Positions 7,116 through 64,000 of a DNA stretch of 64,000 nt are shown piece after piece. The stretch spans positions 66,774,001 through 66,838,000 of the forward strand of contig OZ024746.1 of NCBI GenBank assembly GCA_964016885.1, written 5' to 3'. Numbering within the stretch: the stretch's first letter is position 1; every line of letters begins with the position of its first letter. A program made the position numbers and the translations under genes. Source of the DNA: Eledone cirrhosa. Lineage: Eukaryota. Under the pieces are notes generated by a model, which worked only from the letters and a program-made list of their open reading frames with translations, made no database searches and had not been told where the DNA came from.

Positions 7116-7339
7116 ATCATAATAAATTTGAAGACTAAAATCCAAAGAGGGTTCGATAAGGATAAATATATATCAAATATATAAGAACCGTAGACCAAAT
7201 ATTTATTAAAATAACAGATTAAAGTTTAAGCAAAGAATCGCTGCTTTCACCCTTAATGGGATTTTCTGAGTTTCAGAAGATCCCGTTAAGGGTGAAAGCA
7301 GCGATTCTTTGGTTAAACTTTAATCTGTTATTTTAATAA

Positions 7340-7342
<3 letters not shown>
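7112..7342. mobile_element. Fold-back insertion (inverted arms ~7199-7269/7273-7342); family also at 35518-35688 and 36385-37445
   Basis: Near-perfect palindrome between (TA)n tracts; contains the HHR-like string CAGAAGA-TCCCGTTAAGGGT-GAAA. Confidence 0.8.
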
Positions 7343-7372
<30 letters not shown>

Positions 7373-9331: not shown

Positions 9332-9514
9332 GGCGAATTGGCAGTATCGGTAGAGGGTCGGACGCCATGCTCTCCAGCATAGTTACGTCCCTTTACGGTC
9401 TGAGTTCAAATCCCGTCGAGGTTAACTTTGCCTTTCAACCTTACCGGGTCGATAAAATAAAGTACCAGTAATGAACTGGGTAATTGCTGGTCTTGTGCCA
9501 AAAGTAGAAACAAT
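9332..9514 (+). mobile_element. Full-length SINE with 16-bp target-site duplication
   Basis: Complete family sequence; TATTGGAACCAAAAAT at 9316-9331 and 9515-9530. Confidence 0.92.
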
Positions 9515-11988
9515 TATTGGAACCAAAAATATAATAAGAAAAGAATATATCAATGCGTTTTGATATTAAAGAATACATCAATGCGTTTTGATTCAAATAT
9601 TTTATGATACATATGTTCTTTGACATTTGCATTAAGTATGTCTCGTAGCCTGATAAACATTTCCTGTAATGTGCATATTAATAATATACATTCATAATAC
9701 AAAATATTGATACATAGGAAATGTAAATATGACTGCACATAACTCTTGTCGTAGCATTCCTGGTTCATTTATTTAAATAATTGAAACTTTCGCTTGACAT
9801 AATATGAATTTACCTAATCTACATAATTATATCATAGTTCTTGTCAGCTTAGCATTTTGCAAACAAGTGGTGTGTGAAGTATTAAGCAAATTCAATTGAC
9901 GGACCAACTAATGTAATATAGCCGTAGGAGATTGCAATGATTTTAATGCTATTTGGTTTTACTAAAAAAGGTAAGAAAATGAAATGTAGGACAATGTGTT
10001 CATTTGTTGATTAACGTTTAGGTTATAGTCTTTTAGCTTGTAATTTTTTTTTTATAAAAGCTATTTGCAAATGGAAACTAATATATTGCTTGAATTAATT
10101 TATACACGAAGTATTAAGAAAATGGTATTTTGCCGTAATTTGATAATACGGATTGGATTTTCTACTTTCCCCTTTAATTATGTTAGATACATAAATGTCT
10201 TTTTTGCATTAGCAAATGTCTAAATGTGGTAAACAAAAGAGAAATATTGCGAAGGTGCCGCAGCCTTAGTGTCAGATCAGAAACTAAAATGTTTTATTAT
10301 GTATTGAATGCAAGACCTTCATTAATATGGGTAAGTTTTTATTGGAATTAAACAAAGGAATGTTTTACATGATGATACATGATGCGATGTTATATTTAGA
10401 ATATATTAAAATACATACAATAACAATATATAACTATGCATTGAACATAGTAGAGAGAAATTCCCTTTTACCTATTATTTATGGCTAAAATGTATATGAG
10501 CCCACAATAATTTTGAGACTTCACAAAATAAGTGGGAAGGAAATCGAATATAATGTAAGGAAAAAATAACACAAGGCATTTTATTAAAGAATGAAAAGAT
10601 TTGAATGCATCTTTCTTATGGTATGTATCATTTTATAATTAACAAGTTTGGTTAGATTGTAGTGTCGAGTTAAAGTCCTTTTATCTACTTTCTATGCAAA
10701 TCCATGAAATCTGGAAAATGTTCAGTGGTGTGAACTCCCAGCAGCGTGTATAATAATTAAGAACATAACATTATTTTTGTGGGACATTTCAAAATAATAC
10801 ATGTTGCAGCACAGGGCCGGTTGTAGTATAGTGTTCTTCCCCCATTATCCGATGTTTGAGATGCAATCGAGAAACAATAGATGTGATAATTACCCATTTC
10901 GTTAATATATTTTGTACCCCGAAATGTATATATCTCCAGTGCAGAGATAGCGTGTCTATGCTTACATATTAAGTTGATGTTTGCACATTAAATAAATGTA
11001 CATATAACGTAGATAAAGCACAGGCCACTCTTGCAGCAGAACTGACATGAACAGCCATAGACATTACACATTTTACCTGGCGTTTGCAAAGTTGTTATGT
11101 GTGTCTGTTCCGTCCACATATACTTGAAGGTAAATAGTAAATCGGCTTATAACTTCTTATGAAAAATACCATTAGTAACATTTGCCGATTTCTCTCATTC
11201 ACATATCAATACGTTTTCTGACAGCATCTTAATTACCTGATATTCTACGGCATTGTGTGTTTCTTAAATATAAGACTAATCTAGCGAAGCTGTTCTGAAA
11301 GTCATCGTGTAGAAAGTGTCATGTGGTTTATCTAGAGGTTATATTTGCCTAGCGAGGCTAAATATATGTTCATTAACTGTTTGTTATTTATCTCGAGAAA
11401 CACTGTCTGTGTTTATATCAACGCTTCAGTTCTATAATAAAATCTTTAAAATGTTATAGATCTTCCCATTTAAAGAGACAATTTTCTGAGACAGATTACG
11501 ACATATCTTCATATTAGAAATAACGTAAATCTATTGAAATGAAAGGTGTCTTCAGTAAAATGTATGAATTAAAATTAAAAACTCCCCATTAAAAATGTGC
11601 ACATCTGATACAAATTATCAACACCAGGGCAATGTCACAAATAAAAGATGAATCAAAGATCACTACCTGAGAACGTCATATCTTTATGAATAATACTGGA
11701 AATAAAAATACTAAATTGGCGATTAAAGTGTGCTGAAGGGACGGTAGAATTGTACTTAAGGAGTTAGTAATAGAAGATATAGGAAGTCAACATGTGAAAG
11801 AAGTATTATCCAGTATTTTTCATAAGGAAAAGATAACTAAACAACAAGCAGAGTTGGTTTCTGTTAAATAAATTATATTGGGGAGAAGTAAAACTAAAGT
11901 AAGACAACTCCACAGCCACCACAACTTCTACAACAAAAGAAAACATTAACAAAAATAAGTTCAATGACCATCTACACTGCATGCCAAT

Positions 11989-14319: not shown

Positions 14320-14503
14320 AATAATTGTTTCTACGTTTGGCACAAGGCCAGCAATTAACCAGTGCATTACTGGTACTTTATTTTATCGACCCCGTAGGGA
14401 TGAAAAGCAAAGTTAACCTCGACGGGATTTGAACTCAGAATGGCAAAGGCCGTAACTCTATGCGTCAAAGCATGGCGTCCGACCCTCTACCGATACTGCC
14501 AAT
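14320..14503 (-). mobile_element. SINE, same family
   Basis: Reverse complement of the family consensus. Confidence 0.88.
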
Positions 14504-14560
14504 AATATGAGGAAAAAGGTAACGGATGGATCGTATTGCATCAATAATAGAAACCATTGG

Positions 14561-14743
14561 ATTGCCAGTATCGGTAGAGGGTCGGACGCCATGCTTTCCA
14601 GCATAGTTACGTCCCTTTACGATCTGAGTTCAAATCCCGCCGAGGTTTACTTTACCTCTCATCCTTACGGGGTCGATAAAAATAAAGTACCAGTAATGCA
14701 CTGGGTAATTGCTGGCCTTGTGCCTAAAATAGAAACAATTATT
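14561..14743 (+). mobile_element. SINE, same family, head-to-head with 14320-14503
   Basis: Full family sequence. Confidence 0.88.
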
Positions 14744-15719: not shown

Positions 15720-15965
15720 GATCATACACGATTTGTAACAATAGCCTGATACAGCGTTCCTTTGTCAGTGTTGAACATACGAACAACGATGGTTGCTGGA
15801 CACTACGGCTTAATACGGGATGTTTGATTACAAACACACCGAGCATTATAATAAATGTTCGGTGAATCCATACGTACATATATATATGTGTGCATGTATG
15901 TATATATATATATACATACTGCTGTACGTCGGTATACATATATGAATGTACGTGTACATACTTAT
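15720..15965 (+). mobile_element. Decayed copy of the 436-bp HHR element at 55059-55542
   Basis: Shared TGTCAGTGTTG...ACGATGGTTGC...TATAATAAATGTTCGGT...CCATACGTACAT...CTGTACGTC; ribozyme segment mutated or deleted. Confidence 0.7.
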
Positions 15966-16267
15966 ACCTGATACATAATCTAATATAAATCCCTCTTGTG
16001 AAATTGTTTTTATTTCCTTATTACTTATCTACCGTTGTAGACAAATTATCTGGACTACTAATGCAATTTACAATATGAGACAATGGCACTCTTCTTTCCG
16101 TCTATCTTTCTGGTTTGCTGCAATCTTTTCCCAGAGATCCACCTGAGACGTCGCTCATTCTCTTCACCCCGTGCCTTAGTCGCTAGGGATTCTTTCCCAA
16201 TTGTTTTCTTGTCCTAGTCTTATGACTTTCATAAACTTTATCCCGATATTCTTATACACACACACAT

Positions 16268-18025: not shown

Positions 18026-18127
18026 AATAATTGTTTCTACTTTTGGCACAAGGCCAGCAATTTTTACAGTAGATTACTGGTACTTTATTTTATCGACCCC
18101 GTAAGGATGAAAGGCAAAGTTAACCTC
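18026..18127 (-). mobile_element. 5'-truncated SINE
   Basis: 3' half of the family on the minus strand. Confidence 0.8.
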
Positions 18128-24420: not shown

Positions 24421-24598
24421 AATAATTGTTTCTACTTTGGCACAAAGCCAGCAATTATCCAGTACATTACTGGTACTTTATTTCATCAAAACCGTAAAGA
24501 TGAAAGGTAAAGTTAACCTCGACGGGATTTGAACTCAGACCGTATATGGACGTAACTATGCTGGAAAGCATGGTGTCCGATCCTCTATCGATACTGCC
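24421..24598 (-). mobile_element. SINE, same family
   Basis: Reverse complement of the family consensus. Confidence 0.88.
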
Positions 24599-30284: not shown

Positions 30285-30384
<100 letters not shown>

Positions 30385-30957
30385 TAAACGGAATAGAAAA
30401 TCCTCACAATTTGTTCACAGTTGAAAAATGGTTTAATTAGGAATAAAAGAGTATTAGTGATTGTATGGGTTAGTATTCAGTTGTGGTTTTAAGTTTTTAA
30501 GTTTTTACCGGTTGCGCATTTCTAAATGCTTTTCAAAAATAATTTTGAGATAGAGTGTCCGTGCTGTTTGCTCTGATCTGATTAGTTTTGGGAATTCTAC
30601 CTGTTTTTATGTTAAAAAAGTGGCTCCAGCGTTACTTTGGTGTTGCAAAAATTCTTGTGGTCAAAACAATTTTGATTGGTCGGTAGAGGTCATGTAAATG
30701 TAAAAAATTGATTTTGCGCCAAGACTGTTTTTATGTTAAAAAAGTGGCTCCAGCGCTACTTGGTGTTTGCAAAAATTCTTGTGGTCAAAACAATTTTGAT
30801 TGGTCGGTAGAGGTCATGTGAATAAAAAATTGGTTTTGCGCCAAGATTGAGAAATGACTCTTTCACAACAAATATGTGTGTGTGTGTGTAGTAGTAGTAA
30901 GGTGTTCGATGTTGTGATAATGGTTAGCAGGGATGTGTGGCAAATGGCTATTAAGAT

Positions 30958-31048
<91 letters not shown>

Positions 31049-31367
31049 GCAGAGTAATTCGTGGTAGCAGGGATGGTCAGTAAGAATGTGTCTGAAAGCA
31101 ATGGGGGGTATTTTAGCATGTCAAAAGATATTATTCAGCTTTTGTCTTATACGGAGAAGTACGTGTGTGTGTGTATAAGTCTCTTTGTATGTTAATGTAC
31201 GCGTGTGTATGTGTGTGTATATATATATATGTGTGTGTGTGTGTGGGTGGACCAGTATGTTTTCCCCCTGGTAAAATGGTGTACATTATTCGATTTTTTC
31301 AGTAAAATCGGTTCTCTTAATAGAACATCAAACATCTTAACAATAAAAGGTGTGAAATGATATTCAC

Positions 31368-31437
<70 letters not shown>

Positions 31438-31440
<3 letters not shown>

Positions 31441-32078: not shown

Positions 32079-32278
32079 TATATACATACATATATATATA
32101 TATATATATACACATATATTTTTTTGTGTAGCACCATAGAGCATGTGTGTTTACGTATGTCATTGTGTTTATATGTGGGTAGAGATGTGTGCTGATGTAG
32201 GTATGTATGTTGACGTGTGTATGTTGTGGGTTCGTCTTAGGGAGAAGTGTTTAGACCGGGTCCGTATTTGTTAATGAA

Positions 32279-34215
32279 GAAAGAATGGGAAGAATTAAAT
32301 AGATTAAAAACCGACAGAACCATTACAATTAAAGAGGCTGATAAAGGGAGTACAGTAGTCCTAATGGAGACAGAATTCTATATCAACTTAGCGCTCTCCA
32401 CTTTGGAAAACGAAATATACTACGAAAAGGCTGAACACTACAATCAACAGAAAATTATGAGAAACTTAAAAACTCTAATCAACCAATACAAAGAAGGACT
32501 CACTAACAAGGAATTCAGCTTCATCACAGACTTCACAAGTAAATCCAGCCTTTTCTACGGTATCCCTAAAGTACATAAAAGCGAATCAATAAGTAAGGCA
32601 TGCAAGGAAGCCACAGACATAGTCATCAATGTCCCCTCACCCAATGATCTCAAATTAAGACCTATCATAGCAGGCCCCGCTTGCGAAACGCACCGTCTTA
32701 GCAACTTCATTGATACCCTTCTCAAACCCTTCCTCAAACACATCAAAAGCTATATAAGGGACGACCTAGATATGCTCAATCACCTCCCTAATATGCCACT
32801 TTCTGAACAAACCCTACTAGTGACGTTCGATGTAGTGAACCTATACTCCAACATCCCCCACAACCTAGGAATAGAAGCTATCCAATTCTGGCTGGATAAT
32901 TTCCACAATGAACTCCCAAAACGCATCAAAAAAGAATTCGTGATAGAGGGACTCAAATTTATCTTGAAGAACAATTACTTCGTTTTCAATAACAAACCCT
33001 ACAGGCAGAAATCTGGGACCGCTATGGGAACGAAAACAGCCCCCACTTATGCCAACCTAGTCATGGGATACCTGGAAATCACCCTCTACACTAAAGTCCT
33101 AAACAAATTTGGAAACACCCTCCACTTACACATTGAAAGGAACTGGAAGCGATATCTAGATGACTGCTTCATCCTTTGGCACGAAAACATCGAAAAACTT
33201 AAAGAATTTCACACCCTTATAAATGGGCTCAACACGAATATTAACTTCACGATGGAATACAGCGATCAACAACTCCCCTTCCTCGACATCCTCATTAAGA
33301 TCCATAACAAAAAAATAGAAACAGACATATACTACAAGCCCACAGACTCCAAGCAATATCTCCCCTTCAACTCTTGCCACCCTAGACACGTTAAAATTAA
33401 TATTCCCTACAACTTAGCCAAGAGAATCTGTACTATAGTCTCCAATAAAAACATCTGCTACTTACGGCTACAAGAACTAAAGGACACACTCATAGGCAGG
33501 GACTACCCTGCATCACTAATTGACAATGGAATCCAACGTGCCCTAAAACTCAGTACCCAGGACCTTAGACACCCTAAAGTAAATCAACCGAAACTAAAAG
33601 CTCTTCCATACATCTCCACACACAACCCCCTCAACAATGAGGCCTTTGATACCATCCTCCAGAACATCCCTGTGTTGAAAAAGGACCATAGAATGAACCA
33701 AATTCTACGAACACACGATATCATAAAGAGCAAAAGACAATCCAAGTCAATGAAAAACATCCTAACACATGCCAAAGTACTGCCAACCACAACAACGAAA
33801 CCCACAGTTAAAAAAATGCGATAGACCCAACTGTGGCATTTGCATCAACCTAATAGAGGGTTCGGAATTCTATTTCAAAGACGGACAACGTTTTATAGTA
33901 AAACACAATTTCACATGTGCATCGGAAAATCTAATATATGTATTAACTTGCACAGGTTGTCGAGAACAATACATAGGCCAGACCAAAAACAGCCTCCGCC
34001 AACGCATGACTGTCCATAGATCCCAAATTAAAATTCGGGAATACAGGAAAATACCACTGAGTGAACACATTGATACCTGTGCCGCCCAAAATCATCCCAA
34101 CTTCAGAATCTTTGCCCTCTACAAATTTAAAGATAATGCCACCCACACCCAGCGCATCAGCAAGGAATCTTAATTCATTAACAAATACGGACCCCGTCTA
34201 AACACCTCTCCCTAA
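32279..34215 (+). pseudogene. PLE polyprotein: reverse transcriptase plus C-terminal GIY-YIG endonuclease, disrupted by a +1 frameshift (A7 at 33810-33816) and TAA at 34171-34173
   Basis: IKEADKG, FYGIPKVHK, LRPII, FDVVNLYSNIP, GTAMGT, RYLDD, PFLD, YYKPT; linker CDRPNCGIC; NLIYVLTCTGCREQYIGQT...RQRM..H; natural end FINKYGPRLNTSP* at 34215. Confidence 0.95.
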
Positions 34216-34618
34216 GACGAACCCACAACATACACACGTCAACATACATACGTACATCAGCACACATCTCTACCCACATATAAACACAATGACATACGTA
34301 AACACACATGCTCTATGGTGCAACACAAAAAAATATATGTGTATATATATATATGTATGTATATATATATGTGTTTATATATATATATATATAGTGAATA
34401 TATGTATGTGTATATATATATAGTGAATATCATTTCACACTTTTTATTGTTAAGATTTTTGATGTTCTATTAAGAGAACCGATTTTACTGAAAAAATCGA
34501 ATAATGTACACCATTTTACCAGGGGGAAAAAAATACTGGTCCACCCACACACACACACACATATATATATACACACACACATACACACGCGAACATTAAC
34601 ATACAAAGAGACTTATAT

Positions 34619-34668
<50 letters not shown>

Positions 34669-34765
34669 TTCTCCGTATAAGACAAAAGCTGAAAAATATC
34701 TTTTGACATGCTAAAATAGACACGTTCTTACTGACCATCCCTGCTACCACGAATTACTCTGCTAT

Positions 34766-34847
<82 letters not shown>

Positions 34848-34965
34848 ACACACTTATCTTAATAGCCATTTGACACACATCCCTGCTAACCATTATCACA
34901 ACATCGAACACCTTACTACTACTACTACACACACACATATTTGTTGTGAAAGAGTCATTTCACAA

Positions 34966-35211
34966 TCTTGGCGCAAAACCAATTTTTTATTCACATGACC
35001 TCTACCGACCAATCAAAATTGTTTTGACCACAAGAATGTTTGCAAACACCAAGTAGCGCTGGAGCCACTTTTTTAACATAAAAACAGTCTTGGCGCAAAA
35101 TCAATTTTTTACTTTCACATGACCTCTACCGACCAATCAAAATTGTTTTGACCACAAGAATTTTTGCAACACCAAAGTAACGCTGGAGCCACTTTTTTAA
35201 CATAAAAACAG
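34966..35211 (+). promoter_or_regulatory. Duplicated ~122-bp module in the PLE pLTR with E2F-like TTGGCGC and CCAAT motifs
   Basis: Two tandem copies starting 34966 and 35088, mirrored at ~30600-30846; related single module at 7684-7800. Confidence 0.45.
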
Positions 35212-35453
35212 GTAGAATTCCCAAAACTAATCAGATCAGAGCAAACAGCACGGACACTCTATCTCAAAATTATTTAGAAATGTGCAACCGGTAAAAACTT
35301 AAAAACTTAAAACCACAACTGAATACTAACCCATACAATCACTAATACTCTTGTATTCCTAATTAAACCATTTTTCAACTGTGAACAATTTGTCAGCATT
35401 TTCTATTCCGTTTACCAATATATAATAACTTGTGTGCTACACCTCTATTCTTT

Positions 35454-43460: not shown

Positions 43461-43465
43461 TGCTT

Positions 43466-44047
43466 GATCAAATGTGATTAGTTGAGATAATATAAGATGA
43501 TAATAGTTATGTCAAGTTTATACATCTTAATAATAAATAATCTGTGTATCAGAGTTACAGAACCTTCAATTCACTTACAGGTTCAAGCCACGTGGCATAG
43601 TCCATTGTTTATCTGTGCGGTCATGCGCTTTTGTTTTTGACACCACAGCAGATGCACAAGTTCGTAAATTCCAATGCAGATAGAAATCTATTTTTGCTCA
43701 CCCGGACATTGACGGAGGATCCAATATTCCTAGTTCAATATGTGTGTGGTGTTATTTTGGTCGCACAAATCAATCACTTGGTTCAATATTATGGAGTATG
43801 GTTTTCTGGTCTTCGTAACAGTGTCAGATATACAACCACTGACACTGTTACGAAGACCAGAAAACTGTGGTGTCAAAAGCAAACGCGCATGACCGCACAG
43901 ATGAACAATGGACTATGCCACGTGGCTTGAACCTGTAAGTGAATTGAAGGTTCTGTAACTCTGATACACAGATTATTTATTATTAAGATGTATAAACTTG
44001 ACATAACTATTATCATCTTATATTCTCTCAACTAATCACATTTGATC
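43466..44047. mobile_element. Fold-back element with ~185-bp inverted arms and a nested 27-bp-arm hairpin (43801-43865)
   Basis: 43466-43649 is the near-perfect reverse complement of 43865-44047. Confidence 0.88.
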
Positions 44048-44646
44048 ACATTTGATCATATTTCCCTATCCCGTTTTCTCCCCCCATAATTATAATATTT
44101 TTATTTTTATTTGAAAAAATCGGTTGTTTTACATTGCGTTTTCCCCTCCAAATATTCGCTTATATTTCTTTATATATTCTCTATATATTTTTTTACATAT
44201 ATATTTTTTATCTTTATTATTTCCACTTTTATCCTCCTTTATATTTTACCTTATTCTTACTTTTATACATTATTATAGTGTAATCCTCCCCATGCCTTAT
44301 TATACATTATTAATTGTAGATTATTATTATTACTCTTTTTCCATTTCTAATTATCTCATGTACTTTCTCCTCCGTTATATATATATATATTGTATGCCCT
44401 TTGTGTTTGTGTAGCCTCTGCACACCCTCTGCACCATACTATCGACGCCACCCCATCTATGGTTCAGCTAACCACTCGACTCCCGGGAATGAATATGGCC
44501 GCAGCTAGTAAAAAAGGACCCACACTGCACCCTCCCGCACCAAAATTAGACTTATCGTCCCCTACTTTTGCTCTTTACTCTCTTTACTCTTTGTTCTTGA
44601 ATGTTTGGTTGGTAGAGTCCATAACACCAATCAAACCCCTTTTATA

Positions 44647-47894: not shown

Positions 47895-48751
47895 GTTCTA
47901 TTTAAATTGTTGGGATACAACAAGCAAATATTTTTATATCTGATATATACAAATTATTTGAGTAAAAATACGATAAATGGAAACTATATTTATAAATCCA
48001 TATTTATTTCAAGGACACCAAGTTAAATTATGGTGTGCTTTCATCAGTTAAAATATAATATAGATCAGTTTTATAAATACATATTGACATACCCTTAAAG
48101 AATGCTACCATTTCTGTTGGAAGCTCCCGGATAGTGGGGTTATTAAATTTACTTAGTCTATTATACAAATTAGTGTCGGATATGTTTAAACCACAGTAGA
48201 TTTTAAATAAGCCGTTGGGGTATGGAAAAGGGGAAAGAAAAGAAAGAGAAAAAAGAGAAAAAAAAGAAAAGATCAAAATCTAAGAGGAAAATAAGAAAAC
48301 AAGAGAAAGAGAAAGAGAAAGAGAAAGAGAAAGAGAAGAGAAATAGAAGAAAAAAGAAAAAAGAAAAAACAGAAAAAGAAAAACAGAAAAAAGAAAAAGA
48401 AAAAAGAAAAAAAAGAAGAAAAAAAAGAAAGAGAAAGAGAAAGAGAAAGCTCTAAGTGATAGGTTGTTGTATTAGCGTAACTTTTAAGATGAAGTGAAAA
48501 AATAAATATTTATTGGATGAGTTAGGAAGAGTAAATAAGCGTGAATAGAAAATAAATAAATAATAATAACTGGAGAATTTTAACCAGTGTTTAAATATGA
48601 TTAAATGTTTAGTTTATCAATTAAATTATCAATTAAATTATTGAGATCTATACATTAAAATTGAGATCTATATATTATTAAAAGATCTATATATTATTAA
48701 AAAATCTATATATTATTAAAAAAATATATTCATATATATACATACGCACAT

Positions 48752-48785
<34 letters not shown>

Positions 48786-49252
48786 ATATACATACAGATA
48801 CATATATATACATACAATAAAAGATTTTTTATGTTTAAGATATATGAATTTTTCTAAACTTATAGATTTTTCGGAGAAATCAGAGAAAAAATCGGAGAAA
48901 AATCATTTCTATGTAATAGCAAAACAGCGTGAAGGAAATTAAATTATTTACTTATATTAAATGTTATAAATGTTAAGATAATAAAGGAAATTTAAGATTA
49001 TACAAACATTATATTATTTAATAGTAAGTTATAATTTTATAAATTTCATAAATTTTATATCTAATAAATCCACCTGTTATGTAGTTGTGACTGTTATTAT
49101 ATAAGTTTGTTTAGCATAAACCGTAAGAAATCGCTTATAACAGAGTGCATTCGAATTGTATGTATATATACATATACACAAACGCCACATAGATACACAT
49201 ACATATATGTACACATACCGGTAGACATGCATCATACATATATATATATATA

Positions 49253-49315
49253 TAACAAGGGCGGTGCCCCAGTATGGCCTCAGCCGGATGGCTGAAACAG
49301 GTAAAAGAGTAAAAT
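49253..49315 (+). mobile_element. 3' tail fragment of a second SINE type
   Basis: GGCGGTGCCCCAGTATGGCC...GGCTGAAACAGGTAAAAGAGTAAAA; family recognised from memory. Confidence 0.5.
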
Positions 49316-49320
49316 ATATA

Positions 49321-49541
49321 TATATCCAAAATTAAGATAAATTAAATGAATTCAATCTAAATCGAAATTGTGGGTGTCATGCCTTAACGGCGTGCGCCAT
49401 ATCGCCCGGAAAATAAGCTCAAAGACTTTTACAAAGTCTTTGAGCTTATTTTCCGGGCGATATGGCGCACGCCGTTAAGGCATGACACCCACAATTTCGA
49501 TTTAGATTGAATTCATTTAATTTATCTTAATTTTGGATATA
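49321..49541. repeat. Perfect 109-bp-arm palindrome, 3-nt loop
   Basis: 49321-49429 is the reverse complement of 49433-49541. Confidence 0.95.
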
Positions 49542-49974
49542 GATATATAAATATGGCTTCTTGATTGTAAAGCTAACTCTGTTGAAAGGAATTGACTGCT
49601 ATTTCTAGTTGTCGAATACCTATTCACGCCACTGAGACGAAGCCGCTGTGATGTGTAAAAACAACACGTGGTAGCGGCCAGTTGAGGATTTTGACTCGAA
49701 GTGTAAACATGGATTGCTGTATTATTGTCCTTCCTTGTTGATAATCCAATAATATCCACTTTCTCTGACTTACCATCTGATTAATTGGTGAAATATATTT
49801 CTTTAATGAAATATTATTCAGGGAAGATTAAAAGGTATCTATTTTTGAAGTTCTAGTTAACTTTATTTATTTGTTACCTACTAGCCATGCGTGGTTACAC
49901 GCTTGTAAAAATTATCTCCTGTGATTATTCATGTTTATATTTATTTATATATATGTTGATCAATTTCTAGTTAT

Positions 49975-50100
<126 letters not shown>

Positions 50101-50438
50101 GAAATATAAAGTACTTAGTATAATTAAAGTACATAATATATAAAATAAAATAAAAATGAATTATAGTTTTAAAAGGAATTACGATTTGTAAATATATTCT
50201 TACAATGTTAAGCAATATAAATTTAAAGCAATATAATTTTTAAAAATATTTTAAAATATTTTAGGATATAATTTTGAAAGAAGGATATGTCTAAAAAATT
50301 CAGTATAAAATGAATTTAAATTTTTTTTATATATAATATAATATTTAACTCTCAGTATGTTTATCTTAATTTTTATAACCATATGAGAAATTTTCAAAGA
50401 GAAACTTTCAAAAATAGGAGAAACTTTCAAAGAAAATA

Positions 50439-50640
50439 TCCAGCTTATTATGGGACCTTAAATTAAGGAACGTTAAATATTCGTTACTTTGGAATATTAT
50501 TTCAAAAGCTACTCCATTTAACTCCTCTTCCGAAAATTGCGATCTTTGTATAGAGGAAATATTCTTTATATTAAAAAGCAAAAATTCCCTGAACGTAAGA
50601 AGCAATCTTTTCAGTTGCTGCAAACATAGATTGAATATAA
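50439..50640 (+). pseudogene. C-terminus of PLE GIY-YIG endonuclease (not in the ORF track, no start codon)
   Basis: Open frame SSLLWDLKLRNVKYSLLWNIISKATPFNSSSENCDLCIEEIFFILKSKNSLNVRSNLFSCCKHR, matching the W..I..A.PY...C.LC..E...LN.RS.L...CRH pattern. Confidence 0.82.
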
Positions 50641-51130
50641 ATTTAAAATGTAATATATATCTCATTCTATTAAATATATTGAACCTATCGATAAATCATT
50701 AGATTCCTTCATTTGACTGCTTAAAAGTCTCATTATAAAAAAAAAATTTTCCTAGAAAATTTTTCTCGATAAACATACTTAAAGCTCTTAACAGGGGAAA
50801 ATATTTTCTTTGAAAGTTTTTCCTATTTTTGAAAGTTTCTGTTTGAAATTTTCTCATATGGTAATAAAAATTAAGTTAAACGTACTGAGAGTTAAATATA
50901 TTATATATAAAAAAAATGTTAATTCATTTTTATACTGAATTTTTTAGACATATTCTTATTTTAAAATTATATGCTAAATAGTTTTTAAATATTATTTAAA
51001 ATAATATTGCTTTAAAGTTATATTGCTTAAAATTGTAAGAATATATTTCCAAATCGTAATTCCTTTTAAAACTATAATTCATTTTTATTTTATTTTATAT
51101 ATTATGTACTTTAATTATACTATGTACTTT

Positions 51131-51226
<96 letters not shown>

Positions 51227-52384
51227 CATGTCTACCGGTATGTGTACATATATGTATGAGTATCTATGTAGGGGTTGTGTATATGTATATATACATACAA
51301 TTCGAATGCACTCTGTTATAAACGATTTATTACGGTTTATGTTAAACAAACTTATATAATAACAGTCACAACTACATAACAGGTGGATTTATTATACATA
51401 AAATTTATAAAATTTATAAAATTATAACTTACTATTAAATAATATAAGGTTTGTATAATCTTAAATTTCCTATATTAGCTTAACATTTATAACATTTAAT
51501 ATGAGTAAATAACTTAATTTCCTTCACGCTGTTTTGCTATTACATAGAAATGATTTTTCTCCGATTTTTTCTCTGATTTCTCCGAAAAATCTATAAGATT
51601 AAAAAAATTCCTATATCTTAAACATAAAAAATCTTTTATTGTATGTATATATATGTATCTGTATGTATATATATATGTATATGTATATATATATATGTGT
51701 GTGCGTATGTATATATATGAATATATTCTTTTAATAATATATAGATATTTTTATAATATATAGTTTTTTTAAATAATATATAGATCTCAATTTTAATGTA
51801 TAGATCTCAATAATTTAATTGATAATTTAATTGATAAACTATACATTTAATCATATTTAAACACTGGTTAAAATTCTCCAGTTATTATTATTTATTTATT
51901 TTCTATTCACGCTTATTTACTCTTCCTAACTCATCCAATACATATTTATTTTTTCACTTCATCTTAAAAGTTACGCTAATACAACAACCTATCAATTAGG
52001 GCTTTCTCTTTCTCTTTCTCTTTCTCTTTCTCTTTCTGTTTTTCTTTTTTTTTTTTTCTTTTTTTTTTTTCTTTTTATTCTTTTTATTTTTTTTTTTTCT
52101 TTCTATTTCTCTTTCCCCTTTCTCTTTCTCCTTCTCTTGTTTTCCTTATTTTTCTCTTAGAGTTTGATCTTTTCTTTTTTTTTTCTTTTTTCTCTATCTT
52201 TTCTTTCCCTTTTTCCATACTCCAACGGCTTATTTAAAATCTACTGTGGTTTAAACATATCCGACACTAATTTGCATAATAGACTAAATAAATTTAATAA
52301 CCCCACTATCCGGGAGCTTCCAACAGAAATGGTCGCATTCTTTAAGGGTATGTCAATATTTATTTATAAAACTGTTCTATATTA

Positions 52385-52449
52385 TATTTTATCTGATGAA
52401 AGCACACCATAATTTAACTTGGTGTCCTTGAAATATGTATAATGAAATA
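52385..52449 (+). ncRNA. Type I hammerhead ribozyme at the 3' end of the 48-52.5-kb PLE
   Basis: TATTTTAT-CTGATGA-AAGCACACCA...TGGTGTCCTT-GAAA-TATGTA-TA-ATGAAATA; the left-arm copy (~48003-48055, minus) lacks stem III and the cleavage site. Confidence 0.85.
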
Positions 52450-52510
52450 ACTATGGATTTATAAATATAGTTTCCATTTATTAATATATCGTATATATAT
52501 ATATATATTC

Positions 52511-52608
<98 letters not shown>

Positions 52609-55058: not shown

Positions 55059-55061
<3 letters not shown>

Positions 55062-55540
55062 CCGTACTATGAGTGAGAAATGAAATTTCGTTTCATTCTT
55101 TTCCATTTATCGTTTTCGGTATGTCCGGCTGACTAACTAACTCGGTATGCAAATTAGGCTGCTCAGCCGTTAATATGCATAAAGAGAGAGTATAAACTTT
55201 CAAACGTTCAATCATCTGACAGAAAGGTATACGATGCTGACGATAGCTAATAAGCTTGAAACTAGTACATCGTTCCGGTGTCAGTGTTGGACAAAAGGGT
55301 GACGATGGTTGCCGAGCACTGTACGGCGTAATTCGGGCTGTTTGTTTACAAACAAATCCAACACTATAATAAATGTTCGGTAACCCATACGTACATATAT
55401 ATATATATATGTGTGCATGTATGTATATATATACATACTACTGTACGTCTGTACATATATATGTATATACGTATTTATACTTATATTTAAGTTGCAGCCG
55501 TACTATGAGTGATAAATGAAATTTCGTTTCATTATTTTCC

Positions 55541-55542
<2 letters not shown>
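55059..55542 (+). mobile_element. 436-bp HHR monomer with 48-bp terminal direct repeat, between (TA)n tracts
   Basis: CAGCCGTACTATGAGTGA.AAATGAAATTTCGTTTCATT.TTTTCCAT at 55059 and 55495. Confidence 0.88.
55231..55273 (+). ncRNA. Minimal type I hammerhead ribozyme, canonical core
   Basis: ACGATG-CTGACGA-TAGCT-AATA-AGCTT-GAAA-CTAG-TA-CATCGT; palindromic stem III ACTAGT; predicted cleavage after 55267. Confidence 0.92.
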
Positions 55543-55564
<22 letters not shown>

Positions 55565-55571
<7 letters not shown>

Positions 55572-58248
55572 TTAGAAACACACAGATACATGCGGACACA
55601 CACATATATACATGAATGCATCCGCACCCAACTGTGAGTTAAGGGTGCCAACTTCACCGATGTTGCTCAATGAATGACTGGGACAGACCAATTCAGTTGA
55701 ACTAGACTGAACCAGTATCAGAGTTAAAAATACATTATGAAGAGAGAAGAAACATTTAGATATAATTAGTAATAAAATGTATCATACCTAAACTGCTCCT
55801 AAATTCCTCGACTACGTAGTTTCGTGGCATAAACAAAAACAATATATCAAAGATATAGAGTCCTTGCGAGGTCTGCCGACTTATCAAGAGGATACCTCAT
55901 TTTACTAGTCTCAAGAACGCGTCTACACGACGTGAGAAAGAATCCCAAAAGGCGGAGGGGGAGATAGTCACGCGATATAACGGTCGAGAAACAGAGCTAA
56001 GCCTCCTATAACCACGAAGAAAATACCACGGAGGCGGAGGGGGTATTCATATCGAGGCCGTAGAAGAGGTGGTGAAGAAGGCGAAAAGTATGAGTAATGG
56101 AAGCTTTCCAGTTGTCCCCACACTTCAAAGATTGCTCGACCAGAGGGAGTTATTAACAATATATTTAGAAACACACAGATACATGCGGACACACACATAT
56201 ATACATGAATGCATCCGCACCCAACTGTGAGTTAAGGGTGCCAACTTCACCGATGTTGCTCAATGAATGACTGGGACAGACCAATTCAGTTGAACTAGAC
56301 TGAACCAGTATCAGAGTTAAAAATACATTATGAAGAGAGAAGAAACATTTAGATATAATTAGTAATAAAATGTATCATACCTAAACTGCTCCTAAATTCC
56401 TCGACTACGTAGTTTCGTGGCATAAACAAAAACAATATATCAAAGATATAGAGTCCTTGCGAGGTCTGCCGGCTTATCAAGAGGATACCTCATTTTACTA
56501 GTCTCAAGAACGCGTCTACACGACGTGAGAAAGAATCCCAAAAGGCGGAGGGGGAGATAGTCACGCGATATAACGGTCGAGAAACAGAGCTAAGCCTCCT
56601 ATAACCACGAAGAAAATACCACGGAGGCGGAGGGGGTATTCATATCGAGGCCGTAGAAGAGGTGGTGAAGAAGGCGAAAAGTATGAGTAATGGAAGCTTT
56701 CCAGTTGTCCCCACACTTCAAAGATTGCTCGACCAGAGGGAGTTATTAACAATATATTTAGAAACACACAGATACATGCGGACACACACATATATACATG
56801 AATGCATCCGCACCCAACTGTGAGTTAAGGGTGCCAACTTCACCGATGTTGCTCAATGAATGACTGGGACAGACCAATTCAGTTGAACTAGACTGAACCA
56901 GTATCAGAGTTAAAAATACATTATGAAGAGAGAAGAAACATTTAGATATAATTAGTAATAAAATGTATCATACCTAAACTGCTCCTAAATTCCTCGACTA
57001 CGTAGTTTCGTGGCATAAACAAAAACAATATATCAAAGATATAGAGTCCTTGCGAGGTCTGCCGACTTATCAAGAGGATACCTCATTTTACTAGTCTCAA
57101 GAACGCGTCTACACGACGTGAGAAAGAATCCCAAAAGGCGGAGGGGGAGATAGTCACGCGATATAACGGTCGAGAAACAGAGCTAAGCCTCCTATAACCA
57201 CGAAGAAAATACCACGGAGGCGGAGGGGGTATTCATATCGAGGCCGTAGAAGAGGTGGTGAAGAAGGCGAAAAGTATGAGTAATGGAAGCTTTCCAGTTG
57301 TCCCCACACTTCAAAGATTGCTCGACCAGAGGGAGTTATTAACAATATATTTAGAAACACACAGATACATGCGGACACACACATATATACATGAATGCAT
57401 CCGCACCCAACTGTGAGTTAAGGGTGTCAACTTCACCGATGTTGCTCAATGAATGACTGGGACAGACCAATTCAGTTGAACTAGACTGAACCAGTATCAG
57501 AGTTAAAAATACATTATGAAGAGAGAAGAAACATTTAGATATAATTAGTAATAAAATGTTTCATACCTAAACTGCTCCTAAATTCCTCGACTACGTAGTT
57601 TCGTGGCATAAACAAAAACAATATATCAAAGATATAGAGTCCTTGCGAGGTCTGCCGTCTTATCAAGAGGATACCTCATTTTACTAGTCTCAAGAACGCG
57701 TCTACACGACGTGAGAAAGAATCCCAAAAGGCGGAGGGGGAGATCATCACGCGATTTAACGGTCGAGAAACAGAGCTAAGCCTCCTATAACCACGAAGAA
57801 AATACCACGGAGGCGGAGGGGGTATTCATATCGAGGCCGTAGAAGAGGTGGTGAAGAAGGCGAAAAGTATGAGTAATGGAAGCTTTCCAGTTGTCCCCAC
57901 ACTTCAAAGATTGCTCGACCAGAGGGAGTTATTAACAATATATTTAGAAACACACAGATACATGCGGACACACACATATATACATGAATGCATCCGCACC
58001 CAACTGTGAGTTAAGGGTGCCAACTTCACCGATGTTGCTCAATGAATGACTGGGACAGACCAATTCAGTTGAACTAGACTGAACCAGTATCAGAGTTAAA
58101 AATACATTATGAAGAGAGAAGAAACATTTAGATATAATTAGTAATAAAATGTATCATACCTAAACTACGTAGTCGAGGAATTTAGGAGCAGTTTAGGTAT
58201 GATACATTTTATTACTAATTATATCTAAATGTTTCTTCTCTCTTCATA

Positions 58249-58252
<4 letters not shown>
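55565..58252 (-). repeat. HHR-bearing tandem array: 593-bp monomer x~4.4 (55565-58166) plus ~90-bp inverted tail, flanked by (TA)n
   Basis: Unit starts at 55565, 56158, 56751, 57344, 57937; near-identical copies. Confidence 0.95.
55805..55892 (-). ncRNA. Type I hammerhead ribozyme, U3-A8 variant (also at 56398-56485, 56991-57078, 57584-57671)
   Basis: Minus: UCCUC-UUGAUAA-GUCGGCA...UGCCAC-GAAA-CUACGUAG-UC-GAGGA; palindromic stem III ACUACGUAGU; GUC triplet. Confidence 0.85.
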
Positions 58253-58317
<65 letters not shown>

Positions 58318-58320
58318 TTC

Positions 58321-58360
<40 letters not shown>

Positions 58361-60028: not shown

Positions 60029-60213
60029 GGGCGGGAGATTGGCAGTATCGGTAGAGAGTCGGACACCATGCTTTGAAGCATAGTTACGTCCCTTTATGAT
60101 CTGAGTTCAAATCCCGCCGAGGTTAACTTTGCCTTTCATCCTTACGGGGTCGAAAAAATAAAGTACCAGTAATGTACTGGGTAATTGCTGGCCTTGTGCC
60201 TAAAATAGAAACA
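60029..60213 (+). mobile_element. Full-length SINE with 16-bp TSD
   Basis: ATTATTTCAATGTTCA at 60013-60028 and 60214-60229. Confidence 0.92.
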
Positions 60214-62495
60214 ATTATTTCAATGTTCATTTAAATGAATTGGTATTCTTAGTAGCTTTTTACCTTTGCCCCTTTATCATAGACACCACTAATCAATGTG
60301 TCCTTAATATCTCATGTTTTGATGGTATTTTCTATCTACTGGTTGGTTATGATGATTGTTAATCCACAGTAAGTAAGGTGAGCTGGACTAAGGTATCCTC
60401 AGAATATAGACCTGTCCCGACATTTTACAACGAATGATCTCATTTGCTGTTTCAAAATTTCAATCGTTTTCGAATGAGGTTGGACCTTAATGTATTCTTA
60501 AGTGATTCTAGATTAAAGCATTTAATTTGACGTTTTAAACATATGTGAGGATTCTTCGCTAAATAAATATGGTTTGAAAAGAAATTTGTACGTTCTCACT
60601 TCAGATATTCACCTCTGATAAAAATGACGATATGTTGTTCATTTAAATCACCATCGGTTTTGTTGCTTCCACTAGGGACTTTTCTTCACACTACTATTTT
60701 TGTCCTTGTACTTGCAGTATAGACACATTCCAGCCCCACTTTATCAATTATCTAGCCCATACGTTTTAAGGCCCATTTTCAAACAATATTCTGCATCCAG
60801 AACTCGTATGGTTTGCAAATGTATAAGCTCCAATATCTCGTCAATTATTTTCATTTCGGCCCTCGATTCAGCTCGTTGCCAAAATAAAGGCGCAAAAGTT
60901 ATATTAGGTCACAGCATAACATTTGTTGCTTTTTCTACAATTCTTTGCTTGGAAACGGTCATCCAATTGGGAAAGCTGGAGTCAGTATACTATTCTAATG
61001 TATCTAATTTAGTCTCTATATGTCCGTTCTGGTTTTCGGCTGAGTGGAAAATTTAACGATTTCATATATATGAATTGAACTCTGTTGCGCTGTACATATT
61101 GCTAAATATTTTATTTTATGTAGTTACAGATTGTATAGAAGTCAAATCTATCTTAGGCAACATTTGTAGACATTCACATACACATGAAGTATTCCAGCTT
61201 CATGTGCAAGTAATCAACGTATTATGTCTAACTGGCTATTTGTTGTGAAGGTAATATTGTCTAAGTTAGGACTTCTATAGTTCATGATATATCTAATGGA
61301 ATGTGTGTAATACATTGTTATCTTATATATCCTGTAGACAAATTAGGCCAGGTTGCATATATATGTGCGTGTCCTTGCCTATATGTGTATTGGACTGTGT
61401 ATGTGTTTCTGTTCATAATTTGTATGCGTTCCATTAAGCAGTTGGTTGCACATGTTTTGCTAGGTTTTGTCATGGTAAGGAGAAAAATATTCGACTCACT
61501 GCAGCATATATTTGCTTTAGCTGTGCGAGTCAAGTAAGAACGAATGTGAACATTTTAATAAACTTATGCAATCATATATCTTGTATATTTTTAATACACC
61601 GCATATAGTAAAACAGAGGTAATAAGAACTTCGTTAACTATATTTCACAGAGACAATATATACTCGCACGCATAGCACATTACGCAGACATACATATATG
61701 TATATCAATAATTTAGTATTTACATTCACTTGTATTTCATTACAGTAAATATGTACTTGTAAGTAGATTGTATGAGAGTGTTTAAACCTTCGATGTTGAC
61801 ACATAGAAAAAAAGGAAAATAAAGAAACCTCATTTAAGAAGAGTATAATCTATTTGTAGGGTAGGTAGCAGCAACATATAAAGCCTTTATAATCCCAGCA
61901 TTTTGATCTTTACGAAATAATGTATTCGTTCCTTCTGCACGCTTCACTTAGATTTCTATACAACGAAACTTAGAACACGTTATATAAGATATTACTCCGA
62001 AAAATCCTGCCTGATATATTGGAAATTCTCATGTATTAAATACGGTATTTTGCTAAGTGAATGTATATTATTGATGCAACCTTTAAAGATTTACTAAACA
62101 TTTCTAACTCGGAAAATGTTAAATAAATGTCATAGTATTTTATCGGCACATGTGTAATGAAGAGAAAGAAAGATTATATTTCTTCGTATATGTTGATTAA
62201 CAGTGCTTTGAAGAGAAAATCTTCTCTTTTTACAAACTTAAGCACTGGCGATATATGTAAAGTTCAAAGAATATCTCGAAGAACCGTAATTATTGTATAT
62301 TAACTGTTACGGCTCCATTCTACATTTATTTTTTAATGAAACGTGGAGGAAGAAAAGGAAGAAAGCAAGAGGAAATATATTGGGATACTTAATTTCATGA
62401 CATTCTTATGGGTTCAAATAATTCTAGATTCAATATTCCCTTCCTTTCAATATAAAAATACCCCCATATACAAAATATGTATTATTGCGTAACAC

Positions 62496-62565
<70 letters not shown>

Positions 62566-62704
62566 GGTTAATATCCCCACAGGTACTAAGTACCCCTGGA
62601 TATATATAGGGTGTCTATGATACAGTGGTTGTTCCATGGTATTAATTTGACATACCAGAACTATAAAATTGAAATAAGCGGAGCAAGTAAGATTCAAGCA
62701 ATGT

Positions 62705-62950
62705 TTTAAAATAAATTAAAAAATATAATTAAATATTTACTTATTCCATTTGCTTTTACCGACGGTTTTACCTTACAAAATATAGGAGATCCTAGGGACC
62801 TCCAATGGAAATGTTCGGATCATTAAAGAGCATTTTCCTTACCTAGGAAAAAGTCCCAGGAACGGCAAATATATATTGCCACCTGTCAGCTAGCACAGGA
62901 TCGTCGGTAAAAGCAAATGGAATAGGTAAATATTTAAATTATATTTTTTA
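62705..62950 (-). mobile_element. Diverged relative of the 457-bp array family with a decayed HHR and an inverted tail
   Basis: TTACCGACGGTTT and TCCAATGGAAA shared with 1704-1784; core decayed to TTAATGA/AAAA; inverted copy from ~62899. Confidence 0.65.
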
Positions 62951-62984: not shown

Positions 62985-63260
62985 TAGGAACTAAAACTAG
63001 TCTCTTACAATAAAATAGCTCTAGGAAAGATATTTCCGAGCCGTATATTATAATTGAATATAAAAGAAAAGCGAACACAGATATATACATATATGTGTTC
63101 AAATTGCAAGGGACCAGATTCGCTAGGTGAAAAAAATACTAACTGTAGACAATAGTCTATAGTTAGTATTCTTTTCACCTTAGCGAATCTGGTCCCTTGC
63201 AATTTGAACACATATATGTATATATCTTTGTTTATCTGTGTTAGTTTTTCTTTTATATTC

Positions 63261-63270
<10 letters not shown>
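62985..63270. mobile_element. Fold-back insertion (~100-bp arms, centre ~63152) between TA tracts
   Basis: Direct inspection; related to 35700-36032. Confidence 0.82.
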
Positions 63271-63300
<30 letters not shown>

Positions 63301-63324: not shown

Positions 63325-63872
63325 TATCTTTTTCGCCCTATCTCTACTGCTCTGAGCCGATGTTACATTAAAGCCAGAGTCCTGGTGTTTCTCCAGTGCA
63401 AGGCGCATACAATAGTCCACCACAATGATAAAAAGGTAGAGAGCCAATGTATCTCCCTGGAGCACACCAGCCAGTATCTCAAAGAAGTCCGTCATCCCAT
63501 CAGGTGTAAAGACATTGGTGTAATGACTTTGGTGTTGGTGTAGAGCAGTGATATCAGGTCCACTCTCTTCTTGGGGATTCCATAAGCCTGTAAGATCTTC
63601 ATCAGACAGTAATGGTCCAGAGAATCAAAGGCCTTTCTAAAGTCAATGAAAACCATGACCGCTGGAAGGCACTTTGCTCTAGCTCCCTCTAATATCCTCC
63701 TCAGCATCAGGATGTGACTGGTGGTTGATCTTCCCTCTCTGAAGCCGTTCTGGTTGTCCCTGAGCTTCTTCTCTATCTCGGGCTGGATCCCGTCAAGAAT
63801 CATCCTGTTGAAGGTCTCGGCCACAAGTGACGTCAGTGAGATCCCCCTGTAGCTGTTGGAGTTAGAGAGATC
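63325..63872 (-). pseudogene. RTE-clade LINE reverse transcriptase, N-terminal RT motifs (inverted 5' segment)
   Basis: SYRGISLTS, QNGFREGRST, FIDFRKAFDS, AYGIP, GVLQGDTLA.YLF; frameshift near 63500. Confidence 0.9.
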
Positions 63873-63880
63873 TCTAGAGA

Positions 63881-64000
63881 GATGCTGATTTTGCCGATGA
63901 CATAGTTTTGGTGACAAATACAGTGAAGGAGGCAGAGGATTTGATGCAGGAAGTTGAGACTATGTCGATGAGTGTGAGGCTGAGAATGAATGAGAGTAAG
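63881..64000 (+). pseudogene. Continuation of the same RTE RT on the opposite strand (FADD motif), running off the window
   Basis: DADFADDIVLVTNTVKEAEDLMQEVETMSMSVRLRMNESK. Confidence 0.88.

What the first reader, a model, noticed from the sequence alone, without database searches (positions are those of the whole stretch)
55565..58252. 593-bp x4.4 array with one U3-A8 hammerhead per monomer: candidate circular-RNA retrozyme
Seen: near-identical, non-coding monomers at a non-integer copy number. The array ends are out of register with the predicted cleavage site (between 55810 and 55809 on the minus strand), and the array has TA flanks and an inverted tail. Self-cleavage of a minus-strand transcript would release 593-nt monomers. 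Inference: concatemeric cDNA from rolling reverse transcription of a circular RNA. The monomer is larger than the few-hundred-nt metazoan retrozymes I recall.
Basis: partly seen in the sequence, partly recalled or inferred. Interest (0 to 1): 0.82.

Follow-up and report, generated by a model that had tools for sequence, protein, structure and literature searches.

The report
Penelope-mobilised hammerhead retrozyme tandem array
This is a 4.4-copy tandem of a non-coding 593-base repeat with a predicted self-cutting (hammerhead) RNA motif in each full copy, likely pasted into a TA repeat by a Penelope-type retrotransposon; it is a new family of a known kind of animal mobile element, and whether a circular RNA was the template is untested.

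Summary
In detail: period 593, 4.39 copies (55565-58166), a 93-nt inverted tail, (TA)n flanks, and a type I U3-A8 hammerhead on the minus strand of each full copy. It is a new family of animal non-LTR retrozyme, i.e. a non-autonomous Penelope-like (PLE) terminal-repeat multimer. U3-A8 is a published PLE variant and 593 nt lies inside the published 51-972 bp range.

Instead, other copies in a public run join (TA)n at the same two monomer positions (1-2 and 166-167) as this array's two outer ends. That fits PLE internal initiation at two fixed sites, so out-of-register ends do not show a circle. An unrelated 457-bp hammerhead array with the same layout and a 5'-inverted RT/GIY-YIG PLE lie in the same window.

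A circular template remains my best guess (about 0.5): all four units share two alleles that are rare in the family pool. Cleavage, expression and circularity were not testable. Unexplained: flankless closed contigs of the monomer in two runs labelled as other organisms.

The parts
55541..55564 (.). left (TA)n target tract; 3' side of the element
55565..58166 (-). direct array, 4.39 copies of the 593-bp monomer (units start at 55565, 56158, 56751, 57344, 57937); inferred RNA strand is minus
   Evidence: strand from hammerhead and fold z -5.5 vs -0.9
55565..55566 (-). distal 3' end (monomer position 1-2), 245 nt downstream of the cut; inferred reverse-transcription start site
   Evidence: same position joined to (TA)n in 5 contigs of run X1; distance
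55632..55787 (-). intron-like stretch, 156 nt (donor 22 nt after the cut, branch point and acceptor); consensus match only
   Evidence: 60 of 2000 shuffles match the same pattern
55805..55892 (-). type I hammerhead, copy 1 (U3-A8 core 55887-55881; predicted cut 55810/55809)
56398..56485 (-). hammerhead, copy 2; second pair of stem II broken at 56472
56991..57078 (-). hammerhead, copy 3 (identical to copy 1)
57584..57671 (-). hammerhead, copy 4; second pair of stem II broken at 57658
57427..57756 (.). 330-bp patch holding 6 of the array's 7 substitutions
58162..58166 (.). 5-nt microhomology at the inversion junction
58162..58254 (+). inverted tail = monomer positions 258 to 166; spans the cut site and helix III but not the 5' half of the core; its outer end is the proximal 3' end, 80 nt downstream of the cut
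   Evidence: same position joined to (TA)n in 7+2 contigs of run X1
58252..58358 (.). right (TA)n target tract

Best explanation
The array is a non-coding tandem of hammerhead-bearing 593-bp units between TA repeats, likely written in one event by a Penelope-like reverse transcriptase/endonuclease acting in trans, most likely on a circular monomer RNA. Shown: the array, the motif, the TA flanks, the inversion with microhomology, and that other family copies end at the same two monomer positions. Inferred steps: (1) a minus-strand transcript is cut by the hammerheads and ligated to a 593-nt circle (about 0.5); (2) a PLE endonuclease opens both strands of a (TA)n tract; (3) each 3' end primes at one of two fixed internal sites, 80 and 245 nt downstream of the cut, each just 3' of a predicted long hairpin and each starting with ATA; (4) one cDNA runs 4.39 turns, the other 93 nt; (5) the two cDNAs join head to head through 5 nt of microhomology. 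Confidence that it is a PLE-mobilised non-autonomous element is about 0.9; the number given here is for the whole scheme including the circle.
For: Fixed ends: run X1 has (TA)n joined at 56159 (5 contigs) and 56323/56324 (7+2 contigs), the two outer ends of this array; one more contig folds back at 56383, 4 nt from this array's inversion point. A purified PLE initiates at two internal sites on either strand in AT-rich DNA (PMC11167929). Tandem plus 5'-inverted copy, tail and (TA)n target are PLE features (PMC8557442). U3-A8 and palindromic helix III are PLE hammerhead variants (PMC4209133). Same window: a 457-bp hammerhead array with the same layout, proximal end 84-86 nt after its cut, and a 5'-inverted RT + GIY-YIG PLE. 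For one monomer as template: all four units carry C at position 442 and A at 521, which hold at most 0.6% and 0.02% of summed depth in X1 and are absent from the closed contigs of X4 and X5; none of the 7 substitutions is shared by two copies. RNA-strand fold z -5.5 against -0.9 for the other strand. Active hammerhead fold is 1.1 kcal/mol above the minimum in copies 1 and 3. Animal retrozymes of three species are expressed as circles (PMC7229834).
Against: No RNA, cleavage or circle was observed. The purified PLE uses unprocessed RNA and hammerhead mutants insert normally; minimal PLE hammerheads cleave poorly; 8 of 9 Xenopus retrozyme dimers did not cleave in vitro. X1 may be another individual or species, so the two shared alleles could be population-wide, not array-specific. 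Five of 6 mutation events fall in 330 nt (P about 0.006) and one column has three alleles (P about 0.026), which uniform error on one circle does not predict. No sequence link to the PLE in the window, and no autonomous partner was found. Similarity of the two start sites is modest: 9 of 12 nt, reached by 5 of 253 pairs of ATA sites; 8 of 10 nt, 7 of 136 pairs, in the 457-bp family. This array's own inversion junction is not among the joints listed for X1.
Confidence: 0.5

Rival explanations
1. Same PLE machinery and start sites, but the template was a linear, uncut multimeric transcript of a source array (or repeated re-initiation on linear RNA); no circle is needed.
For: Unprocessed RNA is the main substrate of the purified PLE; low activity of PLE hammerheads; 2 of 4 hammerheads here have a weakened stem II, active fold 3.3 and 3.9 kcal/mol above the minimum; the diverged patch in copy 4 could be inherited from a mixed source array; head-to-tail joints are common in X1 (5 contigs, depth 3524).
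Against: All units share two alleles that are rare in the X1 pool, and the copy-4 alleles are not among those listed at 5% or more, so a source array would have to be both homogeneous and rare.
Confidence: 0.3
2. An ordinary PLE-type partial tandem (1.4-2.4 units) was inserted and later grew locally by unequal crossover; the patch in copy 4 is an older unit or a gene-conversion tract.
For: Copies 1-3 are nearly identical while copy 4 differs at 6 sites; local amplification is the model discussed in the 2026 preprint; it also explains the shared rare alleles.
Against: No variant is shared by a subset of copies; all 6 copy-4 changes are on one branch relative to the X1 majority; a second family shows the same multimer plus inversion layout, its inverted arm itself longer than one unit (533 vs 457 nt).
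Confidence: 0.14
3. The inversion arose by self-priming on an antisense template, as proposed for rotifer Penelope elements, not by priming from both target ends.
For: Proposed from palindromes at inverted junctions (PMC3846280); one X1 contig has a near-perfect fold-back at 56383.
Against: Here both outer ends are fixed family sites joined to TA; the 457-bp array's junction joins points about 160 nt apart, not a hairpin; the purified PLE extends both target strands.
Confidence: 0.04
4. The unit number or the tail is an assembly artefact.
For: Short-read-proof confirmation is missing; no listed contig spans the monomer in X1.
Against: Copies carry private variants; head-to-tail joint seen in 3 of 3 contig runs laid, and both ends recur in X1.
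Confidence: 0.02

Closest known systems
Metazoan non-LTR retrozymes (Cervera and de la Pena 2020, PMC7229834; Li, Clavereau and Pollet 2026, bioRxiv 10.64898/2026.07.22.740005)
   Same: Tandem non-coding units, one type I hammerhead each, GC below 50% (41.8%), highly self-paired RNA strand, 593 bp inside 51-972 bp, few units (75% of families have at most 7), PLE in the same genome.
   Different: The three validated circles have canonical C3-G8-type hammerheads and 220-390 nt units; this one has a PLE-type U3-A8 core and a long domain II. In the parts I read, these papers do not describe fixed ends, TA targets or 5' inversions for retrozymes. Expression is unknown here.
Pseudo-LTRs of endonuclease-positive Penelope-like elements (PMC4209133, PMC11167929, PMC8557442, PMC3846280)
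   Same: Hammerhead variant with palindromic helix III, tandem plus 5'-inverted copy, two internal 3' ends, AT-rich/(TA)n target, intron-like signals kept in DNA, an ATG inside the ribozyme 21 nt before the cut (26 nt in the anole element).
   Different: No RT-endonuclease ORF; the two ends are 165 nt apart (published tail 30-40 nt); the intron-like stretch follows the ribozyme, whereas in D. virilis the intron ends at the 5' end of helix I.
MRC1 and other non-autonomous Chlamys PLEs of Chlamydomonas (PMC8557442, PMC9940879)
   Same: Non-autonomous, multicopy head-to-tail insertions made by PLE enzymes.
   Different: Algal; most Chlamys lack canonical hammerheads.
L1 twin priming (recalled, Ostertag and Kazazian 2001; not read here)
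   Same: Two target-primed cDNAs joined by microhomology give a 5' inversion.
   Different: L1 primes at a poly(A) end and at variable internal sites; here both sites are fixed and internal.

Membership tests
Non-LTR retrozyme | Tandem repeat with a type I hammerhead in at least two consecutive units | tested here: met
   Core and helices I and III in 4 of 4 full units; strict stem II in 2 of 4
Non-LTR retrozyme | No protein-coding capacity | tested here: met
   0 of 7 frames hit Pfam; no homolog of the 87-codon frame among proteins of 47-153 aa; 155 of 500 shuffles as long; 8 of 10 family variants in it are non-synonymous
Non-LTR retrozyme | Unit size in the published range and GC below 50% | tested here: met
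   593 bp vs 51-972 bp, above the 150-450 bp of 2020; GC 41.8%
Non-LTR retrozyme | Highly self-paired RNA strand | tested here: met
   z -5.5, 0 of 100 shuffles; other strand z -0.9
Non-LTR retrozyme | No LTR, PBS or PPT | tested here: inconclusive
   No LTR layout in the self-comparison; PBS and PPT were not searched
Non-LTR retrozyme | Self-cleavage of the transcript | not testable with these tools
   Only predicted folds
Non-LTR retrozyme | Expression as monomer-length circular RNA | not testable with these tools
   No run on record as RNA was listed
PLE-mobilised element (pseudo-LTR type) | Tandem units with a 5'-truncated inverted copy | tested here: met
PLE-mobilised element (pseudo-LTR type) | Two fixed internal 3' ends (tail signature) | tested here: met
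   Positions 1-2 and 166-167 recur in X1; spacing 165 nt, longer than the published 30-40 nt
PLE-mobilised element (pseudo-LTR type) | Insertion into (TA)n / AT-rich DNA | tested here: met
PLE-mobilised element (pseudo-LTR type) | PLE-type hammerhead variant | tested here: met
   U3-A8, 5-bp stem I, palindromic helix III; the extra nucleotide after A9 is absent in my fold
PLE-mobilised element (pseudo-LTR type) | Retained spliceosomal intron | tested here: inconclusive
   Consensus match, 60 of 2000 shuffles; same pattern in the 457-bp family, 50 of 2000; pattern chosen after seeing the sequence; no RNA
PLE-mobilised element (pseudo-LTR type) | Sequence homology to the pseudo-LTR of an autonomous PLE | tested here: inconclusive
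   None to the one PLE in the window; whole genome not held
Autonomous PLE | ORF with RT and GIY-YIG endonuclease | tested here: not met
Viroid-like infectious circular RNA | Replicates without a DNA copy; ribozymes in both polarities | tested here: not met
   Genomic, high-copy, TA-joined; descriptor hits only on the minus strand of the monomer

The most novel reading that the evidence does not exclude
The 590-nt circle moves between animal hosts. Fourteen runs with 11 organism labels in 10 studies hold half or more of its sampled words (10 labels in 9 studies if the possible source study is left out). In the two other-label contig runs laid (X4, X5) it is one closed, flankless contig of unit length plus 30 nt at depth about 8, both with a 3-nt deletion that is only 9% of the X1 pool, while 1.9 Gb of raw DNA reads of organism D show no true match although another run labelled D holds 0.67 of the words. 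That would be a retrozyme with an extrachromosomal, horizontally spreading stage. Trace DNA from a high-copy carrier (food, parasite, cross-contamination) or close relatives explain the same data more simply.
Probability: 0.07. Interest if true: 0.85.

Novelty: new member of a known kind. Interest (0 to 1): 0.36.

Why it matters
As a repeat family it is ordinary. Its value is as a clean test case. A 2020 review says animal retrozymes show no conserved motif that points to their mobilising partner (PMC7761336), and the 2026 preprint links them to PLEs by co-occurrence and phylogeny and leaves the mechanism open. This insertion and the 457-bp one carry the PLE integration footprint directly (two fixed ends, TA target, head-to-head join). 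The family looks young and high-copy, so long reads plus RNA data could decide whether PLE tandems come from circular or linear templates.

Tried and rejected
Rfam: 0 matches at gathering score; one mir-268 match at 25 bits against a cut-off of 47 in 55700-56000, taken as a chance match to a hairpin. No whole genome is held, so copy number and partner could not be mapped. Pattern scans: metagenomes 0 and 2, GTDB 1, viral 0; all 3 loci are 62-66% GC and share only the 20-mer, rejected as chance. No RNA holder listed; this says nothing on expression. Matches at 56171-56224 in X4, X5 and X22 are to a CA-rich low-complexity stretch and were set aside. Coding: removing the intron-like stretch would put an ATG in the ribozyme in frame with the 87-codon frame, but there is no homolog, no Pfam match and no synonymous bias; longer and shorter proteins were not searched. 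Covariation among family variants is uninformative: of 12, 5 keep a predicted pair, 3 break one, 4 are unpaired. My relaxed descriptor missed this array's hammerheads because of the bulge in stem II and gives 0.37 hits per shuffled window; 2 of its 8 hits (13340, 21424) I regard as chance and 1 (52393) as uncertain. The start-site comparison for the 457-bp family used a wrong offset and was redone. Earlier findings of the scan: none. Paper searches: 'Penelope' + 'twin priming' 3 papers, seen as listing only, none on PLE mechanism by title; 'non-LTR retrozyme' + 'rolling' + 'reverse transcription' since 2020, 0.

Full report
Observation. The window looks like animal DNA: most 2-kb bins have 27-39% GC, and there are 53 tracts of 10 or more TA units. 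Between two TA tracts lies a direct array of period 593 from 55565 to 58166 (4.39 copies), then a 93-nt inverted copy of monomer positions 166-258 joined through 5 nt of microhomology. The copies differ at 7 sites: one in copy 2, six in copy 4. Each full copy has, on the minus strand, a type I hammerhead with a 5-bp stem I, a U3-A8 core, a 57-nt domain II and a palindromic helix III; the predicted cut is at 55810/55809. The descriptor hits 5 of 2000 shuffled monomers. Copies 2 and 4 break the second pair of stem II; the active fold is 1.1 kcal/mol above the minimum in copies 1 and 3, and 3.3 and 3.9 in copies 2 and 4. Two helix III palindromes could form a 10-bp duplex of -12.9 kcal/mol, so dimeric cleavage is open. 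Rfam does not recognise the motif. The minus strand folds far better than shuffles (z -5.5), the plus strand does not (z -0.9). Nothing points to coding.

The family elsewhere. No genome is held. Of 24 runs listed, 20 hold the stretch or part of it, 14 hold half or more of the words, none is on record as RNA. I laid one monomer (55904-56496) on four runs. In X1, 1666 contigs map, with summed depth of 1e5 to 6e5; this is no copy number but shows a large, varied family. Of the 13 loose ends printed (88 more not shown), 6 are from X1. Three of them are (TA)n joined at 56159 (5 contigs), 56323 (7) and 56324 (2), i.e. monomer positions 2, 166 and 167. These are the two outer ends of the array in the window. 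A fourth is a fold-back at position 226, 4 nt from this array's inversion point. The other two (56013, 56442) are short and uninformative. Depth steps up near the same two positions, though the first step overlaps a CA-rich stretch that unrelated sequence also matches. The head-to-tail joint is present in X1, X4 and X5. So the ends are fixed sites, not permuted ones.

What fixes the ends. A purified anole PLE nicks AT-rich DNA on both strands and starts reverse transcription at two internal sites of its RNA, with no difference between strands; unprocessed RNA is the main substrate and hammerhead mutants insert normally (PMC11167929, parts 1-2 of 4 read). Partial tandems, a 5'-truncated inverted copy, a tail at either end and (TA)n targets are standard for endonuclease-positive PLEs (PMC8557442, 12 of 28 passages; PMC3846280, 10 passages). 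U3-A8 was reported in Schistosoma PLEs with about 1300 hits, and palindromic helix III in several invertebrate PLEs (PMC4209133, parts 1-2 of 4). Here the two ends lie 80 and 245 nt after the cut, each just 3' of a predicted hairpin of -21.0 and -27.6 kcal/mol (no shuffle control for these two), and both begin with ATA, which could pair with a TA primer. The geometry fits two cDNAs primed from the two target ends and joined by microhomology; this is my inference, by analogy with L1 twin priming (recalled).

Same window. At 1623-3334 an unrelated 457-bp family has the same layout: TA, 2.6 direct copies, 533 nt inverted, TA, with a C3-G8 hammerhead per unit, a proximal end 84-86 nt after its cut and a donor-like site soon after the cut. 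At about 32110-34340 a 5'-truncated PLE with RT and GIY-YIG domains has an inverted copy of its 3' end; its CX4CXXC linker fits Neptune as described. It shares no sequence with the monomer, so it is only an example of a possible helper. The architecture is thus common in this genome.

Circle or line. For one monomer as template: all four units have C at 442 and A at 521, at most 0.6% and 0.02% of depth in X1 and absent from the X4 and X5 contigs, and no substitution is shared by two copies. Retrozymes of coral, mussel and axolotl are expressed as circles (PMC7229834, parts 2-4 of 6), and a circular template for PLE tandems was proposed in 2014. Against: the in vitro results above; 8 of 9 Xenopus dimers did not cleave; X1 need not be the same individual or species; and the clustering of 5 of 6 mutation events in 330 nt (P about 0.006) and three alleles at one column (P about 0.026) are not what uniform error on one circle gives. 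Position 315 is not listed as a variant, so the family's majority base there is not settled. I put the circle at 0.5, a linear uncut multimer at 0.3, local expansion at 0.14.

Comparison with what is known. It meets the sequence-level definition of a non-LTR retrozyme. The 2026 preprint (10.64898/2026.07.22.740005, parts 1-3 of 5) gives unit lengths of 51-972 bp and argues that these elements are non-autonomous PLE derivatives, so neither the size nor the PLE link is new. It is not an autonomous PLE and not a viroid. Cleavage and circular RNA, the functional criteria, were not testable. In the texts I read I did not find fixed ends and 5' inversions described for retrozyme arrays; my searches were made, the library lacks most subscription papers, and I read no supplements, where such structures may be shown. 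PMC7761336 (12 of 16 passages) and PMC9940879 (2 passages) were seen as passages only.

Unexplained. X4 and X5, labelled as other organisms, each hold one closed contig of 620 and 621 nt (unit of 590 and 591 plus 30) at depth about 8 with no flanks, both with a 3-nt deletion at 56155 that is 9% of X1; X22, raw Hi-C reads of organism D, has 0 true matches in 1938 million letters (5 partial reads on the CA-rich stretch), although X6, another sample labelled D, holds 0.67 of the words. Contigs drop rare variants and library types are not on record. Trace DNA from a high-copy carrier or related species is the simple reading; horizontal spread of the circle is not excluded (0.07).

Verdict. Interest 0.36, for being a young, clean example in which the PLE footprint and the circle-versus-line question can be tested.

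Noticed in passing
window 1623-3334: Second, unrelated hammerhead array: (TA)n, 457 bp x 2.6, 533 nt inverted, (TA)n; C3-G8 core, cuts after 1709, 2166, 2623 (minus) and 3143 (plus); fold z -5.0 sense, -3.6 antisense; a 75% relative at 62519-62811.
   Followed up: partly
window 55060-55530: A 438-bp-period element just left of the array with a compact minimal hammerhead on the plus strand (core at 55237, cut after 55267); 80% relative at 15750-15966.
   Followed up: partly
window 32110-34340: 5'-truncated, frameshifted Penelope-like element (RT, CX4CXXC linker, GIY-YIG) with inverted 3' copy, lying at the centre of a larger inverted pair 30375-31438 / 34347-35424.
   Followed up: partly
window 47925-52527, 49314-49548, 63044-63273, 14320-14743, 43465-44048, 7199-7343: Many long inverted or fold-back repeats; one (51202-52527) has a possible hammerhead at 52393-52441.
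   Followed up: no
window 55155 region to 56166 and 2076-2084: The unit junctions of the 593-bp family (56155-56163) and the 457-bp family (2076-2084) share the same 9-mer, although the families are otherwise unrelated.
   Followed up: no
window 57427-57756: Six of the array's seven substitutions lie in 330 bp of copy 4; none is listed at 5% or more in run X1. Conversion, template switch or local assembly error are open.
   Followed up: partly
window 55810-55740 (minus): The predicted hairpin right after the cut buries the donor-like site, which might keep the intron-like stretch unspliced; the proximal 3' end lies inside that stretch.
   Followed up: no
window 63492-63959 (minus): Fragment of a LINE-type reverse transcriptase, unrelated to the PLE.
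   Followed up: no
window 430-575, 1392-1532, 9337-9519, 14320-14743, 18026-18127, 24421-24598, 60038-60219: A dispersed repeat of about 180 bp, 85-95% alike, in at least 8 places, probably a SINE-like element.
   Followed up: no
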